Source: a virus
Length of the DNA stretch: 64,000 bases
Virus record (IMG/VR): IMGVR_UViG_3300009285_007322
Reading direction: 5' to 3' (one strand)
In this document: piece by piece, positions 1,087 to 63,293 of the stretch
How the letters are laid out: the number at the start of each line of letters is the position of its first letter
Numbering within the stretch: the stretch's first letter is position 1
Position numbers and translations under genes: made by a program
Notes under the pieces: generated by a model
What the model was told of the DNA's origin: nothing
The model's input: only the letters and a program-made list of their open reading frames with translations
Databases searched by the model: none

Positions 1087-1133
1087 AGACAGAGGCGTGC
1101 AGACCACTTCCCGCCTATGTAAAGCCTAACAAC

Positions 1134-1161
1134 GGAGAGCGCCCCTTCCGGGGAGCTCTCC
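1134..1161 (-). terminator. GC-rich hairpin with GGAA (GNRA) tetraloop; possible terminator or 3' end of the candidate ncRNA
   Basis: Minus strand GGAGAGC-T-CCCC-GGAA-GGGG-C-GCTCTCC, followed by GTTGTT. Confidence 0.5.
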
Positions 1162-1188
1162 TAAGAGTACTACTGTCTTATTCACTAT

Positions 1189-1272
1189 TTAGGACTGTTC
1201 ACATTTTGTGAACAGGAGTAGAAAATAAACGGACTCAACACCGCCAGTTGCCTTCGGACTGTCTGAGTGCAT
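1189..1272 (-). CDS. Possible 27 aa peptide MHSDSPKATGGVESVYFLLLFTKCEQS inside the structured region
   Basis: AGGAGA RBS 5 nt upstream of the ATG. The ATG lies in the predicted stem. Confidence 0.25.
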   Translation of the reverse strand: MHSDSPKATGGVESVYFLLLFTKCEQS

Positions 1273-1683
1273 AGCAGTCTCCTGGATTTCCCAATCCGTT
1301 GTCTGCTACTCTCCGTGCACCGCGCGACGACCTCAGGTAACAAAAAGGCTCCTGTCCGGATGTAAGCCCCGGACACGGAACCTGAGAACAGGGGTGGACT
1401 TGGAGGTTAGCGGTCGCGATCCGCCGCCTCCGCGTCTCAGGAGTCTCAGGGCCTTCCTGCAGCAGTCCCGTAGCCCTATTCCTGTCCGCTGCGTCCGGCT
1501 GTCGCTTCCGGAACGCCTGGAACGACGCCTGCGCTACGTTGGCCCTATCGCGGGTCTCCGCGCAGCTGTCCAAAGTACAGAACATCTGGTCTGCTTCCTG
1601 CGGTTGGGGAAGAGAGGAGAGAGGAGGAGGGAGCCCGCAGGAAGCAGACCGGATGCCCCATAACAAAGGGACTATCTCAATCT

Positions 1684-1713
1684 ATTATGCCACAAATGCA
1701 TTACATTTTTCAA
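1684..1713 (-). promoter_or_regulatory. sigma70-type promoter TTGAAA-N18-CATAAT with extended -10 TG
   Basis: -35 at 1708-1713 and -10 at 1684-1689, in an AT-rich gap just after the ligase stop. Predicted start is about 1677. Confidence 0.6.
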
Positions 1714-1716
1714 TAC

Positions 1717-3045
1717 TCATCCCTCATGCCGCGCCAGGAACGAAGGAGCCCGCAAAGCTCCGGATCCGAACTGTCCCTGCGCCCGCACCCGTGCCTTCCG
1801 ACCGATCCACTCGTCCGGATTGACCAGCATATCCGCTGCGTCGGTTCTCGAGAACCCTGATCCTACCCGCCCCACAATCGGCCCATCTGGCTCGACGCTA
1901 AACCCGAACCCTCCAGCCCTGGCCGATCTGTCGGAAGTCTCAGCAGGAAAGATCTCCCTTATGTAGACGTCGTACTCGTCCTGTAACTTGTGCTTGATCG
2001 GCGTTCCTCCGGCTTTCGGCCGGAATACCACACCTTCCGATGTTAACGGATGCTTGCCGGCACGTATACGATCCAATAGCTCTCTGGAAAACTCAGGATC
2101 GTCGGACTCCTCCACTGGATGCAGTCTTCCTCCGGTCAGGTCTGCCAATCGTACAAAGTCTCTGCGCAGCTTCTCTCGGGCCGCATCGGGGATATCGGCC
2201 CGTCCGTAGAGCGCGACCAAGAGACGTATGCCCGCATCGCGCTGCCGTTCTCTGGACTTCAACGAAGAAGTATTGAGCAATCCTCCAAGCGCGTGGGCAG
2301 GTATTGCCTTTCCTCTGGCAGTTCCGTACACCTCTCCACGGTACACAGCTCCGCGCATATCTGCCGGAACAGGTACCCTGTCCAGCCCGCCAATCTTCCA
2401 AGTATAGGTCAGAGGCTGCCCGGTCTTCGACTGCCGTACACTGGACACGTCTATACGGTTCTTCAGCAGGCGCACCAGGGCTGCGGCTCCGTCGATCTTG
2501 GGAGAAGCCGCGTACTCGTCTGTCAGATAGGGCTCAGGATCCTTGGCAGACCTGTACTGCGCCTTGCCGTATTTCTTCGCATCCTTGCCGCTGCCTGTGA
2601 CATTGACCAGGAACCAGCTATTGTCTGCCTTCCTGACCAGCATGTATTCCTTCGGGTGCCTGGGATGGATAAGCGCGAAGCGTACCATCCCAGGAGCAGC
2701 GTCAGTTATAACAGCACGTCCCTTGTCCGCCATACTGACAGTTCCGGCTCCTCGTCCTTCCGGAATTGTACCCTCAAATGACCCATACGCGTACCGATGG
2801 ACCGGCTGCTGTATAGCCAGAACACTATCGCCTGGATTCTCAGGAAACCTGTCTTTCGGTATCGCCCACGACAGCAGTCCTGTAGACTTGTCGCCTATAC
2901 GAAGATCGGCATGCTTTCCTGCCCTGCGCGCCAGATGCAGCTGACGGACATAGTCGAACTCGGCTCCCTGCCTGAGCGCCGCCACGTTTCCCTGACGCCT
3001 GGTTGATCCATCGTCTGCGCGCATGTCTGTACAATAGCAGCGCAA
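1717..3045 (-). CDS. LigD-type 3'-phosphoesterase domain fused to an ATP-dependent DNA ligase
   Basis: N-terminal QLH..GKHADLR..SWAIPK..VHRYAYGSFEGTIPEG..GAGTV (LigD PE pattern). Ligase motifs I PKIDG, III GEVY, IV EGVVFR and V IKHK, plus OB domain GRVGSGFS..LRAPSF. The true start may be the GTG near 2990. Confidence 0.85.
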   Translation of the reverse strand: MRCYCTDMRADDGSTRRQGNVAALRQGAEFDYVRQLHLARRAGKHADLRIGDKSTGLLSWAIPKDRFPENPGDSVLAIQQPVHRYAYGSFEGTIPEGRGAGTVSMADKGRAVITDAAPGMVRFALIHPRHPKEYMLVRKADNSWFLVNVTGSGKDAKKYGKAQYRSAKDPEPYLTDEYAASPKIDGAAALVRLLKNRIDVSSVRQSKTGQPLTYTWKIGGLDRVPVPADMRGAVYRGEVYGTARGKAIPAHALGGLLNTSSLKSRERQRDAGIRLLVALYGRADIPDAAREKLRRDFVRLADLTGGRLHPVEESDDPEFSRELLDRIRAGKHPLTSEGVVFRPKAGGTPIKHKLQDEYDVYIREIFPAETSDRSARAGGFGFSVEPDGPIVGRVGSGFSRTDAADMLVNPDEWIGRKARVRAQGQFGSGALRAPSFLARHEG

Positions 3046-3222: not shown

Positions 3223-3342
3223 TGGACACGGAAGGATTCGAACCTTCGAGCGGAGTAGTGCGACTGTATGCGCATGGTCCCCGCTGCCGATTTACTGGGC
3301 TACAACTCCCTCGGCCGGCTTCAACCTCTCGCCCACGTGCCC
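3223..3342 (-). tRNA. Non-canonical tRNA-Tyr-like RNA (120 nt) with G3.U70 acceptor, 20 nt anticodon loop and 38 nt variable arm; CCA not encoded
   Basis: Acceptor GGGCACG/CGTGTCC plus A73. D-arm GGC-GAGAGGTTGAA-GCC. Anticodon stem GCCGA/TCGGC with a loop ending CA-GTA-AA. T-arm GAAGG-TTCGAAT-CCTTC, a perfect canonical T-arm of the type found in E. coli tRNA-Tyr. Confidence 0.8.
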
Positions 3343-3540: not shown

Positions 3541-3837
3541 TCAAGCGGCTGCCTTTCTGAGCCCCCTCTTCTCTCCAGCCCACATATTCCGGCGCTTCAG
3601 GTCGCGCCGGAACTCGTCAGACCGGAACAGAGAGGCACGCTCCTCAACCTGTTCCGGACTGAATCCACCGAGTCGGTGCAGCGTCTGCACCGCCCGGCGA
3701 TACGCGCTGGCCGCAAAGGAGCTGGCCAGCAGCTGCGAGCGATTCCCGTCTGCCAGGATCGCCCGCTGGAACCGGGGAAGGCCGGTCGGTACTGCGGCTT
3801 TCGCCACCGACCGGATCAGTTTGCGGAAGTGCGTCAC
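3541..3837 (-). CDS. Small basic hypothetical protein (98 aa)
   Basis: GGAGG RBS; 4 nt start-stop overlap with the upstream ORF. Confidence 0.7.
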   Translation of the reverse strand: MTHFRKLIRSVAKAAVPTGLPRFQRAILADGNRSQLLASSFAASAYRRAVQTLHRLGGFSPEQVEERASLFRSDEFRRDLKRRNMWAGEKRGLRKAAA

Positions 3838-13510: not shown

Positions 13511-13629
13511 TATTCTTCCTTTACAGCCAGAGCATCCTTCAACGCCTTGCGGTAGTTACGGAGGCCGTACAAGCAGGCGTTGAAGGATAGGTAGTCTAGG
13601 TCAGTACTCCTTGCTGTCTGTGCGCACAT
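13510..13629 (-). pseudogene. 39 aa ORF whose C-terminal half resembles the C-terminal helix of IS607 TnpA
   Basis: MCAQTARSTDLDYLSFNACLYGLRNYRKALKDALAVKEE; AGGAGA RBS; its TAG overlaps the tnpB GTG. SFNACLYGLRNYRK resembles the IS607 TnpA FSARLYGLRSYK-type ending (recalled). Confidence 0.6.
13534..13588. repeat. 14 bp perfect inverted repeat ATCCTTCAACGCCT / AGGCGTTGAAGGAT
   Basis: Arms at 13534-13547 and 13575-13588. Confidence 0.9.
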
Positions 13630-28643: not shown

Positions 28644-28677
28644 GAAACTGTCCGGCACAGATGTGCCGGACAGTTCC
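28644..28677 (-). terminator. 13 bp perfect hairpin after the YubB-like gene; probable terminator
   Basis: AACTGTCCGGCAC (28646-28658) and GTGCCGGACAGTT (28663-28675), 4 nt loop. Confidence 0.6.
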
Positions 28678-59931: not shown

Positions 59932-60014
59932 CTGATGTCGTGCGCCCCGCTGCCGTCCGCATCGTCGTACCTCCTGCGGGCACCATGCCCGGTGTTACGC
60001 TACCACGCGCGCGG

Positions 60015-60170
60015 TCACTTCGCCACGGGTCGCAGGCCCAGAGCCTGCTCCAGCGTCTCCACGCGTGCCCGTAGCTGCGGCACGCTGTTCTCGCTGCCGG
60101 GGTTCGCGGCCACCGCCGTGCGCTTTGCCTTGCGGGGCAGGTACTCGCTCTTGTCGTGTCGGTGCGTCAT
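60015..60170 (-). CDS. Small hypothetical protein (51 aa)
   Basis: ATGA overlap; LRARVETLEQAL coil typical of tail-fibre-associated peptides. Confidence 0.6.
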   Translation of the reverse strand: MTHRHDKSEYLPRKAKRTAVAANPGSENSVPQLRARVETLEQALGLRPVAK

Positions 60171-60571
60171 GCGGGCCACTCCACGTTGACCGCGGCCACC
60201 GCCGCCGCGTCTGCCGCCAGGTCGATCCGGTCTGCCGCCGCGTCCTCTGCCGTCGTGCATGCGTGGATCCAGGCGGCGCACTCCTCGGCCTGGGCCGCGG
60301 CGTAGACTCCCAGCGCACAGTTGATCTGCGCCCAGTCCGGCCAGCGGTCCAGGATGCGCCGCGCGCACTCCATGCGGTTCGCCGTGATGGCGCGCGTTTT
60401 CAGTTCGGCCAGCGTGGGCGGGGGTGGCGCGGGCGGGTCGGGCTGCACGATGTAGCCAAACCGGGCTAGCGTCGCCTCGTCCTCGTTGCCGGTCCAGTGC
60501 CAGGCCTCGTCAGACCAGCGGCGGCCGGGCGTGATGGTGCGGAGTTGGCCGGATGGGGTGAGGATGGTCAT
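60167..60571 (-). CDS. Tail fibre assembly-like protein
   Basis: PPPTLAELKTRAI..W.Q.N..A..V.AV..W pattern at the end of the tail-fibre module. Confidence 0.6.
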   Translation of the reverse strand: MTILTPSGQLRTITPGRRWSDEAWHWTGNEDEATLARFGYIVQPDPPAPPPPTLAELKTRAITANRMECARRILDRWPDWAQINCALGVYAAAQAEECAAWIHACTTAEDAAADRIDLAADAAAVAAVNVEWPA

Positions 60572-60572
60572 G

Positions 60573-61397
60573 TCAGTACACCGCCCATTTGGTGTTCAGA
60601 TAGCCCTCGATCTCCGCGATGTCAGCAGCCGACACGCCGGCACTATGTTGGTACATCAGGCATTCCCCGACCCATCCATATAGCGGATAGGTGGCAGACG
60701 CGCCCGGCGCTCCAACCGAGACTCCGAGCAGGGGTATCCCGCCCAGACTCATCGCCGTTTCCAGCCCCCATGTGTACGCGTCTGGGGCGACACTGTAGGC
60801 GAGGCTGCCATTGATGAATATCCCCATGCTGCCTGCGCCCCCCCCGGCATTGCGCATGTCGTGCCGGAACAGCGCCATCGGCGCCATCGCCGCTCCCGTA
60901 GTGTAGCTCTTCCCGCCAAGCGGCCCGCTGCCGTAGGTCCCAATGCCGTAGTACGCCCCATTGGCTGCCAGGTAGCGCAGCGATGACCGCGTACTCGTGG
61001 CCGTGTTCAAGCTGAACACGCCGCACAATTGCCAGTCTGGCAGAGTCTGCTGTTTGGCCAGGACAAAGATGGTGGCGCGGCACCAGTTTCCGGCCGCGCC
61101 AAACGGGTCGCCAGGCACGACCAGAGACCGCGTACCGGGGGAGTTCAGAGCAGCCAGCCCGTTCTGTATGCTGGTCTTGTAGTAGGGCCGCAGGGCGGCT
61201 GTGGCCTGCGACGCGTTGTAGCCGTTGCCCGAGAGATCGGGCAGGGTCTGCACTGTGTCGCCATCATTGTACCCCACCAGCTCGGATGGGTCATACCAGG
61301 CTGACGGCAGCAGCCCACCATCGGCCGTCGGGCTGGCTGGCGTCCACGCCCCGCCCCGCGTCCGCGCGGCCCTGAGTTGTGCCTGCCAGTGCTGCAT
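60573..61397 (-). CDS. LamG/concanavalin A-like lectin-domain protein (receptor-binding candidate)
   Basis: WYD..D.D.V..DLSGNG.NA.Q..RP..NG..L..G.VGE..Y..IE.YL..KW. Confidence 0.8.
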   Translation of the reverse strand: MQHWQAQLRAARTRGGAWTPASPTADGGLLPSAWYDPSELVGYNDGDTVQTLPDLSGNGYNASQATAALRPYYKTSIQNGLAALNSPGTRSLVVPGDPFGAAGNWCRATIFVLAKQQTLPDWQLCGVFSLNTATSTRSSLRYLAANGAYYGIGTYGSGPLGGKSYTTGAAMAPMALFRHDMRNAGGGAGSMGIFINGSLAYSVAPDAYTWGLETAMSLGGIPLLGVSVGAPGASATYPLYGWVGECLMYQHSAGVSAADIAEIEGYLNTKWAVY

Positions 61398-61400
61398 GGA

Positions 61401-63293
61401 TTACGCCTTCTCCCAGCAGACCATTCGATACCCGCTCGCCTCGCGCCACAGCACGAAGCCCACCGACGCCGCGGCAATGTCGGCCAGGTCGTCGGTGGCG
61501 TCCGCAGTGACGCCGGTCGTCGTAGTCGCATAGGCCCCTGCGATGATGCCAGAACAGCCCTCGCCAATCTCCAGGCCAGAGGGCGTGATCCCGGTCCAGA
61601 TCCCGGTGCGGGTGACTGTGTGGTGTGCCCCGGCCACGAGCGCTGGCGCCCAGGCCCCGGCTCCCGCAGACGGCAGCGCCACCAAGCAGGCGGTGCGCTC
61701 TACCGTCGCGCTCGCGGTCCAGCGGAGCCGGTCCCCGGCAGTCGTGCCGGTGGACTTGGGCACCAGCGCGGTATCCGTCGCGTGTACGTGGTCCCGGCGG
61801 GCTGCGGTCATGGCCGTGCCAGGTGCCGCCGTGCCGTTGTTCGCCGGGTTGGTCGCGTCGAACAGGACCTTGTCGGTGCGGGCCGTCTCGCCGTTGGCGA
61901 TGCCGAGCAGGTTCAGCAGCCCCGCGCCTGGGGCCGTCGCCTGCGGAGCAAACCCCACTGCGCTGGTAGTCGCGACGGCGATGTTGTCCCCGCCGTTGGT
62001 GTGCGACGCGGCATGTGCAGCGGGCGCGCCGGCCGCAACGTCAGTCTGGTGCCAAACCGCCGCGCCAACCGTCGCGTCTACGCACACATACTCGTTGTCG
62101 GCAGTGATGTCGATCCACCGGGACCCCACCGCGTAGCCGTCGCCGCTATCGTCCGTCACCGCGGGCGCCGCCGTGGCGTCGCGCTTGTGGAGCAGCACCG
62201 TGTAGGTCGCCGAGCCGGTGCTCAGCAGCTCCTGTTGCGCCGCCGTGAACGTGCCCTTGGGGATGGCGTTCGCGGCCAGCGTGCCCTGCGCCGCCGTGGC
62301 GTAGTCTCCGCTGGCGGTGTAGGCCGCGCTGCCCAGTCCAAGGGCCGTCTTGACTTCTGCGAGGGTGTGACGTATCCACAGGCCGAAGGGCGTTGCGTTG
62401 CCCAGCAGAAAATCGTGCTCTGCGGTTGGGGCTTCGATGCCTGAGTGCGAACTGGACACGGCCGCGCCAGCGTGGGCAGCGGGCGTGAAGTCACCAGTCG
62501 CGGCGTAGGCCGCGCTCCCCAGGCCCAGGATCGTCTTGACTTCCGCCAGCGTCTTGCGGACCCACGAACCAAACGGCGTGGCGTTGCCGACTGCAAAGTC
62601 ATTCTCTGCGGTGGGCGCCTGGATGCCGCTGTGGCTCGTGCTGACGGCGGCCCCGGCGTGCGCGGCAGCCGTGTACAAAGTGTCGAAGTAGGTCTTGAGC
62701 CAGGCCTTGACCTGCGTGCCGGTCTTGACGCAGTACACCCACACCGCGCCGATGTACTGCCCAACCTCAAAGCGGTTGGCGTCGGCCAGGGCATCGCCGT
62801 CGGCGGTGGTGCGGGTGACGGTCTCTGCAAATAGAGCTGCATGCGCTTCGTCGTCCGCATCGTGCGCGTCGACCAGATCCTGCGCCTCTCCTGCCAGTGC
62901 GTATGACTCCACCACAGCCACCGGAACTGTACCGTGCGGCTGAGGTGCCCAGGATATATCTGCAGTACCGGAGGCAATCCACTTCTCAGATGTATTGTCC
63001 CAGATACCTATCCACAAACTGGCAGTTTCTTCGCTATTCCTGAACAAGCTCAACAGCAGCGCCGTATTCAGATCAATAGAGGCGGATCCGTCTCCGTCTG
63101 CAACCATCAGCTCTGTTGGAACCACCACCCTCTGCTTCCTGTAGGACAGAGGACGGGCACCGTCGGCTATGTGTAACCAGGCCGAAATGCCTCCAAGATC
63201 CGTTCCGGACGTGACAAAATCGATAGTGTCCCAGAGAAACAATGTCCCCGAGACCGTCAGAGTCGATCCGGATACTGCCAGAGTTACACTCAT
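61401..63293 (-). CDS. Tail fibre / baseplate-attached receptor-binding protein (630 aa)
   Basis: Ala/Thr/Gly-rich; internal 62 aa duplication; PAVTDDSGDGYAVGSRWID and AARRDHVH motifs common in tail fibres. Confidence 0.75.
   Translation of the reverse strand: MSVTLAVSGSTLTVSGTLFLWDTIDFVTSGTDLGGISAWLHIADGARPLSYRKQRVVVPTELMVADGDGSASIDLNTALLLSLFRNSEETASLWIGIWDNTSEKWIASGTADISWAPQPHGTVPVAVVESYALAGEAQDLVDAHDADDEAHAALFAETVTRTTADGDALADANRFEVGQYIGAVWVYCVKTGTQVKAWLKTYFDTLYTAAAHAGAAVSTSHSGIQAPTAENDFAVGNATPFGSWVRKTLAEVKTILGLGSAAYAATGDFTPAAHAGAAVSSSHSGIEAPTAEHDFLLGNATPFGLWIRHTLAEVKTALGLGSAAYTASGDYATAAQGTLAANAIPKGTFTAAQQELLSTGSATYTVLLHKRDATAAPAVTDDSGDGYAVGSRWIDITADNEYVCVDATVGAAVWHQTDVAAGAPAAHAASHTNGGDNIAVATTSAVGFAPQATAPGAGLLNLLGIANGETARTDKVLFDATNPANNGTAAPGTAMTAARRDHVHATDTALVPKSTGTTAGDRLRWTASATVERTACLVALPSAGAGAWAPALVAGAHHTVTRTGIWTGITPSGLEIGEGCSGIIAGAYATTTTGVTADATDDLADIAAASVGFVLWREASGYRMVCWEKA
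62295..62666 (-). repeat. Two imperfect tandem 186 bp (62 aa) repeats in the tail fibre
   Basis: AAHAGAAVSTSHSGIQAPTAENDFAVGNATPFGSWVRKTLAEVKTILGLGSAAY vs AAHAGAAVSSSHSGIEAPTAEHDFLLGNATPFGLWIRHTLAEVKTALGLGSAAY; the units start at 62666 and 62480. Confidence 0.92.

What the first reader, a model, noticed from the sequence alone, without database searches (positions are those of the whole stretch)
1583..1655. Long inverted repeat presenting a 28 nt pure purine/pyrimidine loop complementary to purine bulges downstream
Seen in the sequence: arms GGTCTGCTTCCTGCGG (1588-1603) and CCGCAGGAAGCAGACC (1635-1650) extend to 21 bp with one G-T. The loop contains only G/A on the plus strand (1606-1633), which reads CUCCCUCCUCCUCUCUCCUCUCUUCCCC in the minus-strand RNA. 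This loop contains CUCUCC and UCUCCU, exact complements of two unpaired strands of the 1267-1320 domain (GGAGAG 1314-1309 and AGGAGA 1283-1278), and multiple anti-Shine-Dalgarno CCUCC motifs. Inference: the loop could form an intra- or intermolecular kissing contact (as in pRNA rings or RNA cages), act as an anti-SD sponge on host or phage mRNAs, or form an H-DNA/cruciform at the DNA level.
Basis: partly seen in the sequence, partly recalled or inferred. Interest (0 to 1): 0.6.

Follow-up and report, generated by a model that had tools for sequence, protein, structure and literature searches.

The report
Phage RNA hairpin displaying pyrimidine loop
A groundwater phage carries, between its DNA-replication genes and its portal gene, a very stable RNA hairpin that holds a 31-base stretch of almost pure C and U open as a single strand; the feature is real and far from chance, but the proposed pairing with downstream bulges is no better than chance and its partner is still unknown.

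Summary
The arms at 1583-1603 and 1635-1655 pair over 21 positions with one mismatch. Their 16-bp perfect core is the longest hairpin-type repeat in the 64 kb window. The 28-nt purine run in the loop is the longest purine or pyrimidine run in the window.

On the minus (gene-sense) strand the stem extends to 27 pairs (1576-1662). Four of these are G-U pairs that exist only in that RNA, so this is most likely an RNA element and not a DNA structure. It starts about 15 nt after the only strong sigma70-type promoter in the window. It opens a non-coding, unusually structured 550-650 nt transcript at the boundary between the replication and structural modules.

- **Kissing with the bulges:** the loop-to-bulge complementarity is at chance level, and one proposed partner is predicted to be paired.
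- **H-DNA:** mirror symmetry is no better than in shuffled tracts.
- **Anti-Shine-Dalgarno pairing:** it remains possible, but only at the level of base composition.
- **Rho loading:** the loop is also the strongest C-over-G patch in the window, so a Rho-type protein partner is a serious rival.

No divergent homologue could be fetched, so conservation is untested. No Rfam family matches. The scan noted the surrounding RNA on this same window, not on other DNA.

The parts
1684..1713 (-). Sigma70-type promoter candidate (TTGAAA, 18 nt, TG-n-CATAAT). The predicted start is near 1677, about 15 nt before the base of the hairpin.
   Evidence: It is one of only two sites in the 64 kb (both strands) with at least 10 of 12 matches, and the only one with an extended -10 TG. 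It lies in an AT-rich patch 4 nt after the ligase stop codon. Not tested experimentally.
1576..1662 (-). Full RNA hairpin on the minus strand: 11 pairs (4 of them G-U), a C-A mismatch (1651/1587), 16 perfect pairs, and a 31-nt loop.
   Evidence: Energy is -46.6 kcal/mol on the minus strand against -41.0 on the plus strand. Pair probabilities are 0.9-1.0, except 0.56 for the outermost pair. The chance of the 7 extra Watson-Crick or G-U pairs is 0.0013.
1583..1603 (.). Left arm of the inverted repeat (perfect core 1588-1603). It is the 3' arm of the minus-strand RNA stem.
1635..1655 (.). Right arm of the inverted repeat (perfect core 1635-1650). It is the 5' arm of the minus-strand RNA stem.
   Evidence: The arm sequence has no other close copy in the window.
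1604..1634 (-). 31-nt loop: 18 C, 10 U, 1 G and 2 A in the RNA, with a 28-nt pure pyrimidine core at 1633-1606. It is predicted to be fully single-stranded.
   Evidence: 17 YC dinucleotides, 2 CCUCC, 4 CUCC. Searches give P(unpaired) of about 1.0 in both the 558-nt and the 691-nt context.
1120..1575 (-). Rest of the non-coding, unusually structured gap that the hairpin heads (context, not part of the hairpin).
   Evidence: Folding z-score is -3.8 (minus strand) and -5.1 (plus strand), against -0.05 to -1.45 for four coding controls. Codon scores of the gap ORFs are about 0, against 0.17-0.29 for genes. Three population SNPs are structure-neutral.
1134..1161 (-). GC-rich 12-bp hairpin with a GGAA loop, followed by a weak U-rich tail. 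It may be the 3' end of the transcript or part of the portal leader.
   Evidence: (I6). The terminator scan did not call it.

Best explanation
**What it is.** The inverted repeat is the DNA image of an RNA hairpin on the minus, gene-sense strand (1662 to 1576).
- A 27-pair stem of about -47 kcal/mol closes a 31-nt loop made almost only of C and U.
- C and U cannot pair with each other, so the loop cannot fold on itself. It is held out as an obligate single strand.
- The hairpin is the first structural element, about 15 nt from the predicted start, of a promoter-driven, non-coding, unusually structured transcript of 550-650 nt.
- That transcript separates the phage's replication module (PolA, primase, helicase, RusA, Thg1, ligase) from the portal gene.

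**How it most likely works (inferred).** The loop is a docking strand for a partner that reads single-stranded pyrimidines.
- I commit to pairing with purine-rich, Shine-Dalgarno-type RNA tracts of phage or host mRNAs. This is the way C-rich hairpin loops of small regulatory RNAs occlude ribosome-binding sites.
- The long stem would serve to keep the loop open and to stabilise the 5' end.

**Shown and inferred.**
- Shown: the anatomy, the strand, the non-coding and structured context, and the promoter-like site.
- Inferred: the transcript itself, the partner, and the regulatory effect.

**Odds.**
- About 0.65 that it is a minus-strand RNA element of a non-coding transcript or leader.
- About 0.3 that the partner is SD-type RNA.
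For: - Nested extremes: the longest inverted repeat and the longest purine/pyrimidine run of the window lie one inside the other.
- Strand-specific stem: the extension uses four G-U pairs that exist only on the minus RNA, with a chance of 0.0013.
- Open loop: P(unpaired) is about 1.0 in the full-length context.
- Promoter: the best sigma70-like site of the window lies directly upstream on the same strand. All flanking genes are on the minus strand.
- Non-coding gap: codon scores are about 0. The plus-strand ORF has no homologues among 1.84 billion representatives. The minus-strand ORF has only same-population variants.
- Structured gap: the rest of the gap has z -3.8 without the hairpin, while coding controls do not go below -1.45.
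- SD-type motifs: the loop holds 2 CCUCC and 4 CUCC motifs. The phage's genes use GGAG/GAGG-type ribosome-binding sites. Initiation regions pair with the loop better than coding segments do (Mann-Whitney p = 0.005).
Against: - No divergent homologue could be obtained, so neither the stem nor the purity of the loop has been tested for conservation or covariation.
- The loop's actual sequence pairs with initiation regions no better than shuffled loops of the same composition.
- CCUCC is not enriched over what a C/U tract of this composition gives (about 1.5 expected, my arithmetic).
- No target stands out. The best is the initiation region at 3837, with a 9-nt match that is not significant after multiple testing (my arithmetic). 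There is no complementarity of 14 nt or more between the gap RNA and the rest of the window.
- Known anti-SD loops are 6-12 nt (established knowledge). Simple SD pairing does not need 28 pure pyrimidines or a 27-bp stem.
- There are no expression data. The folding z-score does not tell the strands apart.
Confidence: 0.3

Rival explanations
1. The loop is a loading or trapping site for a protein that reads single-stranded pyrimidines, above all the termination factor Rho (S1 or cold-shock-type proteins are alternatives). Rho would bind the YC-rich loop just after translation of the ligase operon ends. It would then either stop transcription before the late (portal) genes or, because the stem blocks threading, be held unproductively.
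For: - The 78-nt windows around the hairpin have C/G ratios up to 2.2. That is the top 0.1% of all minus-strand windows in 64 kb, on a strand that is otherwise G-rich.
- The loop has 17 YC dinucleotides and a single G.
- It lies 83-113 nt after the last stop codon of the replication operon, at a boundary between temporal modules.
- Rho's primary sites bind 5'-YC and C>G-biased sites (PMC12360218). A simple polypyrimidine repeat is reported to act as an artificial Rho terminator (Guerin 1998; only the title was seen in the reference list).
Against: - Natural rut sites are about 60-80 nt of unstructured RNA (established knowledge). Here only 31 nt are open, and the RNA directly 3' of the loop is locked in a 27-bp stem.
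- The RNA downstream is G-rich and structured.
- A strong promoter that fires straight into a terminator needs an extra assumption.
- The host and its Rho are unknown.
Confidence: 0.2
2. The stem is the functional part. A 27-bp double-stranded RNA would be an RNase III processing site, or a stabiliser that separates the ligase-operon message from the downstream RNA, as in T7 early mRNAs. The loop composition would then be secondary.
For: - The stem has 27 pairs with one internal mismatch, which is longer than the roughly 20 bp RNase III needs (the requirement is established knowledge).
- The only Rfam near-hits are miRNA-precursor models, that is, Dicer/RNase III-type hairpin shapes.
- It lies at an operon junction.
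Against: It does not explain the statistically exceptional 28-nt pure pyrimidine loop. Cleavage cannot be tested here.
Confidence: 0.15
3. It is a promoter-proximal, cis-acting element that makes RNA polymerase resistant to termination over the long late operon. It would work as a nut/boxA-like site for Nus factors or as a put-like RNA.
For: - It is the first element after a strong constitutive-type promoter at the head of the structural genes.
- The loop starts GCUCCCUC, which loosely recalls boxA GCUCUUUA (5 of 8; boxA recalled from memory).
- A -10-like GATAGT sits at about +2 to +7, the kind of element that pauses sigma70 at lambdoid late promoters (recalled from memory).
- put and nut elements are promoter-proximal RNA elements (PMC12360218).
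Against: - The resemblances are weak, and no Rfam match was found.
- A second promoter-like site with an operator-like palindrome lies nearer the portal gene.
Confidence: 0.1
4. One reading: the loop makes an intra- or intermolecular kissing contact, or is a disordered linker, within a large self-assembling phage RNA of the ROOL/GOLLD kind.
For: - The context fits. It is a phage, a structured RNA of about 550 nt with its own promoter, and about 1.5 kb from a tRNA-like gene.
- ROOL and GOLLD are phage RNAs near tRNA islands. They form cages held by kissing loops and contain a disordered loop (PMC12286853).
Against: - The complementarity to the named bulges is at chance level, and one bulge is predicted to be paired.
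- There is no Rfam hit to ROOL, GOLLD or pRNA even at E up to 10.
- No covariation data are available.
Confidence: 0.08
5. It is a DNA-level element: H-DNA or an intrastrand triplex, a cruciform, a replication origin, or a packaging or recombination site at the edge of the replication module.
For: - It combines a purine-pyrimidine tract, an inverted repeat and a neighbouring AT-rich patch next to replication genes.
- Earlier notes of this scan read polypyrimidine tracts near phage replication genes as possible origins, and triplex-type repeats as BoxC/PIT elements.
Against: - Mirror symmetry is no better than in shuffled tracts.
- No matching third tract exists, by direct reading of the sequence.
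- No iterons were found.
- The cumulative GC skew has no turn here.
- The repeat is single-copy.
- The stem extension pairs only as RNA G-U.
- A 31-nt loop disfavours cruciform extrusion (established knowledge).
Confidence: 0.07

Closest known systems
C-rich or anti-SD hairpin loops of regulatory RNAs (for example S. aureus RNAIII and RsaE, B. subtilis RoxS, enterobacterial ChiX; recalled from memory)
   Same: A stable stem presents a C/U-rich single strand that is complementary to Shine-Dalgarno sequences. CCUCC and CUCC motifs are present in the loop.
   Different: - Those loops are 6-12 nt. This one is 31 nt with a 28-nt pure pyrimidine run, on a 27-bp stem.
- It sits at the 5' end of an RNA of about 550 nt.
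- No specific target was found beyond a composition effect.
YrlB/Yrn2-type bacterial Y RNAs (PMC4201824)
   Same: [quoted passage not shown] In Salmonella it sits in an RNA-repair operon with the RtcB ligase, as I recall it. Here the hairpin and a tRNA-like RNA flank a ligase gene.
   Different: - No TROVE/Ro60 protein is among the 31 ORFs scanned.
- The GNCGAA Ro-binding motif is absent.
- The loop is large, not small.
- The tRNA-like RNA has an ordinary acceptor stem with CCA, not a Y RNA stem.
- No Rfam Y RNA hit was found.
ROOL and GOLLD large phage RNAs (PMC12286853)
   Same: Phage-encoded, near tRNA genes, large and highly structured, with a disordered loop or linker and kissing-loop contacts.
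   Different: No match to either covariance model, even at E up to 10. The proposed kissing complementarity here is at chance level. Assembly is untested.
Rho utilisation (rut) sites, for example lambda tR1
   Same: A C-rich, G-poor single-stranded RNA just after the end of translation at a boundary between phage temporal modules. It is the strongest C>G patch of the window.
   Different: Only 31 nt are open, and they are enclosed by a long stem. In lambda tR1 the hairpin (boxB) lies between two open rut halves, not around them (recalled from memory).
BoxC / PIT intrastrand-triplex DNA repeats and H-DNA
   Same: A purine-pyrimidine tract combined with a hairpin-forming repeat.
   Different: It is single-copy. 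It has no mirror symmetry beyond chance. No third matching tract is present.

Membership tests
Any Rfam family (including ROOL, GOLLD, phage pRNA, Y RNA, 6S) | Score at or above the family's gathering threshold against its covariance model | tested here: not met
   no match in the whole window at the gathering threshold; on 900-1800 at E up to 10, only miRNA-precursor and other chance hairpin matches appear (best 27.5 bits against a threshold of 100).
Bacterial Y RNA (YrlB type) | Long hairpin closed by a pyrimidine-rich loop | tested here: met
   The description of the family is from PMC4201824. The loop here is large, whereas the family's loop is described as small.
Bacterial Y RNA (YrlB type) | Ro60 (TROVE-domain) gene within a few kb on the same strand | tested here: not met
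   No TROVE hit among the 31 ORFs scanned with Pfam, which include every main-strand ORF of 400 aa or more. Smaller ORFs and the part of the phage outside the window were not scanned.
Bacterial Y RNA (YrlB type) | GNCGAAN0-1G motif near the 5' end (presumed Ro-binding site) | tested here: not met
   The motif is absent from 1677-1576 on the minus strand (sequence; motif from PMC4201824).
Intrinsic (Rho-independent) terminator | GC-rich stem, loop of 3-8 nt, followed by a U run | tested here: not met
   One search does not call it. The loop is 31 nt, and only three U follow the stem.
H-DNA / intrastrand triplex (BoxC/PIT) | Mirror-repeat symmetry of the purine-pyrimidine tract, or a third matching tract | tested here: not met
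   the best perfect mirror arm is 6 nt, and 79% of shuffled tracts do as well. No third tract is seen on reading the sequence. The repeat is single-copy.
Rho utilisation site | C>G bias with many YC dinucleotides in untranslated RNA | tested here: met
   C/G ratio up to 2.2, the top 0.1% of minus-strand windows, and 17 YC dinucleotides in the loop.
Rho utilisation site | About 60-80 nt of unstructured RNA, and Rho-dependent termination downstream | tested here: inconclusive
   Only 31 nt are predicted open, and the flanks are in a 27-bp stem. Rho dependence cannot be tested with these tools.
Anti-SD regulatory RNA | Complementarity to ribosome-binding sites of specific targets beyond what composition gives | tested here: not met
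   the real loop gives -11.84 and shuffled loops give -11.75 +/- 0.67 kcal/mol. The best single site has a 9-nt match, which is not significant. Only targets inside this window could be tested.
RNase III substrate | About 20 bp or more of nearly continuous double-stranded RNA | tested here: met
   27 pairs with one mismatch. Cleavage itself is not testable here.
Protein-coding sequence | Codon usage like the phage's genes, or homologues | tested here: not met
   - the three gap ORFs score -0.013, -0.006 and 0.025, against 0.17-0.29 for genes.
- the plus-strand ORF has no homologues.
- the minus-strand ORF has only 97%-identical variants from the same population.

The most novel reading that the evidence does not exclude
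The hairpin is an RNA decoy. A phage non-coding RNA would display a protected, obligately single-stranded C/U tract that titrates a host factor which reads such tracts. The factor could be Rho, held at its primary sites but unable to thread because of the 27-bp stem; that would make an RNA counterpart of the anti-Rho protein Psu. Or it could be ribosomal S1 or the 30S subunit. Either way the RNA would reprogramme host termination or translation at the switch to late genes. It might do so as part of a new class of large phage RNAs comparable to ROOL and GOLLD.
Probability: 0.1. Interest if true: 0.8.

Novelty: new variant of a known kind. Interest (0 to 1): 0.45.

Why it matters
Phage-encoded large non-coding RNAs (ROOL, GOLLD) are abundant, are now known to self-assemble, and still have no function. 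This locus would add an unrelated RNA of about 550 nt from an uncultivated groundwater phage lineage. Its most conspicuous part is a simple, testable device: a rigid stem that displays 28 pure pyrimidines.

If the partner proves to be Rho, S1 or the ribosome, or Shine-Dalgarno tracts, it would show a new way for a phage to control the switch between replication and structural gene expression. If the loop is only a spacer, the feature is a curiosity.

At present the case rests on one phage population without comparative support, so the interest is moderate.

Tried and rejected
**Homologue searches**
- GenBank phages with the gap by blastn and with 20 kb by megablast: nothing.
- IMG/VR with the ligase, the portal fragment, the portal alignment A2 and the ligase alignment A1. 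The only hits were ligase relatives of 33-47% identity, without synteny or any similar tract.
- JGI metagenome contigs with A1. This gave three contigs of the same phage, 100% identical over the gap, and distant non-syntenic relatives.
- GTDB genome contigs with A2 and A1: nothing.
The contigs that carry the portal relatives of 45-72% identity (P0122-P0133), and the ligase relative P0005 on the same 16-kb contig as P0125, could therefore not be fetched.

**Protein-collection look-ups of ORFs spanning the gap**
- The minus-strand ORF gave only three population SNPs, all outside the hairpin.
- The exact-sequence look-up of the other ORFs found nothing.
- The plus-strand ORF had no homologues.

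**Readings rejected**
- Intrinsic terminator.
- Protein-coding sequence.
- MITE or dispersed repeat.
- Triplex or H-DNA design.
- Antisense regulator with a long target in the window.
- Specific kissing with 1267-1320.
- Y RNA membership.

**Other checks that led nowhere**
- Similar hairpins in distant ligase loci (L011, L012, L020): none.
- Guerin 1998 could not be read.

Full report
**Context**

The window is part of an uncultivated phage.
- Nearly all genes lie on the minus strand.
- Reading along that strand, a replication and nucleic-acid module comes first: family A DNA polymerase, primase, helicase, an SMC/Rad50-like protein, RusA, Thg1, TnpB and an AAA+ protein.
- The module ends with a gene that combines a LigD-type 3'-phosphoesterase domain with an ATP-dependent ligase (1717-3045).
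- A 691-nt gap follows (1716-1026).
- After the gap comes a 646-aa protein whose only named relative is the portal protein of Salmonella phage Arash, at 22% identity.
- The finding lies in this gap, at the boundary between the replication and structural modules.

**Check of the observation**

The inverted repeat is as described.
- The arms are 1583-1603 and 1635-1655: 21 nt, one mismatch, 31 nt between them.
- The 16-bp perfect core is the longest hairpin-type inverted repeat in the 64 kb; the next are 14, 14 and 13 bp.
- The 28-nt pure purine run at 1606-1633 is the longest purine or pyrimidine run in the window. The next is 17 nt, and 0.5% of first-order Markov simulations reach 28.
- The two extremes are nested exactly, which chance does not explain.
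- The arm sequence has no other copy in the window.

**Strand and molecule**

On the minus strand the stem continues beyond the repeat.
- The order is 11 pairs, a C-A mismatch, then 16 pairs, spanning 1662-1576. The energy is -46.6 kcal/mol, against -41.0 for the plus strand.
- Seven of the outer pairs lie beyond the DNA repeat. Four of them are G-U pairs, which would be A-C mismatches on the plus strand and in DNA.
- Seven consecutive Watson-Crick or G-U pairs occur by chance with a frequency of 0.0013 in this sequence.
- This is the best evidence that selection acts on the minus-strand RNA. The folding z-score of the whole gap does not tell the strands apart.
- Directly upstream on the minus strand lies a sigma70-type site, TTGAAA-18-TGnCATAAT (1713-1684). 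It is one of only two sites in the window with at least 10 of 12 matches, and the only one with an extended -10.
- The predicted start near 1677 puts the hairpin about 15 nt from the 5' end.
- Read-through from the ligase operon would also carry the hairpin on this strand.

**The gap is non-coding and structured**
- The ORFs that span the gap have codon scores of -0.013, -0.006 and 0.025. Genes score 0.17-0.29, and out-of-frame gene sequence scores -0.15 to -0.33.
- Their translations look like noise.
- The plus-strand ORF has no homologue among 1.84 billion representatives.
- The minus-strand ORF has only variants from the same population.
- Without the hairpin, 1120-1575 still folds with z -3.8 on the minus strand. 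Four coding controls give -0.05 to -1.45.
- The population variants reveal three SNPs: 1434 C>U, 1315 C>U and 1249 A>G on the minus strand. All are neutral for the predicted fold: one changes a C-G pair to U-G, and two fall in unpaired positions. This is weak support only.

Kissing with the 1267-1320 bulges:
- The two hexamers exist. However, the 456-nt rest of the gap holds 4 loop-complementary hexamers against a background mean of 3.0, and 34% of segments have at least 4. There is no 8-mer.
- The best loop-to-rest duplex is equalled by 28% of other segments.
- AGGAGA at 1283-1278 is predicted to be paired (P unpaired 0.06-0.08), and GGAGAG at 1314-1309 is ambiguous.

Anti-SD pairing:
- The loop has two CCUCC and four CUCC motifs.
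- Initiation regions pair with it better than coding segments do (p = 0.005). Shuffled loops of the same composition do equally well.
- No single target is significant. The gap RNA has no complementarity of 14 nt or more to the rest of the window.

H-DNA or cruciform:
- The best perfect mirror arm is 6 nt, as in 79% of shuffled tracts.
- There is no third tract of the BoxC/PIT kind. That lead came from earlier notes of this scan.
- There are no iterons and no turn in the GC skew.

**What else the loop could be**
- The loop is predicted to be fully unpaired in every context. With 18 C, 10 U, 1 G and 2 A it cannot fold on itself.
- The windows around it have the strongest C-over-G excess of the minus strand (top 0.1%), with 17 YC dinucleotides. 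This is the signature that Rho's primary binding sites read (PMC12360218).
- It also lies 83-113 nt after the last stop codon of the replication operon.
- Against a plain Rho terminator: only 31 nt are open, the 3' flank is locked in the stem, and a strong promoter fires into it.
- The 27-bp stem also fits an RNase III site. The only Rfam near-matches are miRNA-precursor shapes.
- A promoter-proximal antitermination element (nut/boxA-like or put-like) for the late operon is a further possibility with weak support.

**Comparison with known families**
- No Rfam family matches, so it is not ROOL, GOLLD, pRNA, 6S or a Y RNA by the models.
  - Here the hairpin and a tRNA-like RNA (tRNA model 37.3 bits, 3223-3342) flank a ligase gene.
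  - Membership fails on three counts: no TROVE protein among the 31 ORFs scanned, no GNCGAA motif, and a large loop.
- In context it recalls ROOL and GOLLD, which are phage RNAs near tRNA genes with a disordered loop (PMC12286853).
- In working principle it recalls C-rich anti-SD loops of small RNAs, but it is about three times larger.

**Limits**
- No divergent homologue of the gap could be obtained. The same phage occurs 100% identical on three JGI contigs.
- IMG/VR, GenBank phages and GTDB genomes hold no syntenic relative.
- Conservation, covariation and expression are therefore untested, and the function is inferred from one sequence.

**Verdict**
- The feature is real and non-random. It is most likely a minus-strand RNA hairpin that displays a single-stranded pyrimidine tract at the head of a new phage non-coding RNA or leader (about 0.65).
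- For the partner I favour SD-type purine tracts (about 0.3) over Rho or another protein (0.2). The rest: processing only (0.15), antitermination (0.1), kissing or assembly (0.08) and DNA-level roles (0.07).
- The interest is moderate.

Noticed in passing
window 1195-1215: A perfect 8-bp palindrome, CTGTTCAC-ATTTT-GTGAACAG. Its TTCACA halves serve as the -35 hexamers of two back-to-back promoter-like sites, one on each strand. It looks like an operator on a second promoter nearer the portal gene.
   Followed up: partly
window 3223-3342 (minus strand): The tRNA-like RNA scores 37.3 bits against the Rfam tRNA model (threshold 29) in the permissive search. It has a 20-nt insert in the anticodon loop and a long variable arm. 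The gathering-mode scan of the whole window and ARAGORN both missed it.
   Followed up: partly
window 13534-13588: A 14-bp perfect inverted repeat with a 27-nt loop, in the short gap between thg1 and tnpB. It is tied with the 28646-28675 repeat as the second-longest hairpin-type repeat of the window.
   Followed up: no
L020 1777-1870: An AT-rich phage has a ligase C-terminus 55% identical to this one. It carries a C/T-rich tract of about 90 nt, including runs of 20 and 24 pure pyrimidines, in a long non-coding stretch about 1.4 kb after the ligase. No flanking inverted repeat is present. Whether it is analogous is unknown.
   Followed up: partly
window 1249, 1315, 1434: Three polymorphic sites in the phage population, inferred from six variants of a spuriously called 116-aa ORF (P0138-P0143). 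They occur in six of the eight possible combinations, which suggests recombination within the population.
   Followed up: partly
L001-L003 (locus starts): Three independent metagenome contigs of this phage all end 210-825 nt upstream of the ligase start, near the tRNA-like gene.
   Followed up: no
window 60001-62000: GC content rises to 0.69, against about 0.56 elsewhere.
   Followed up: no
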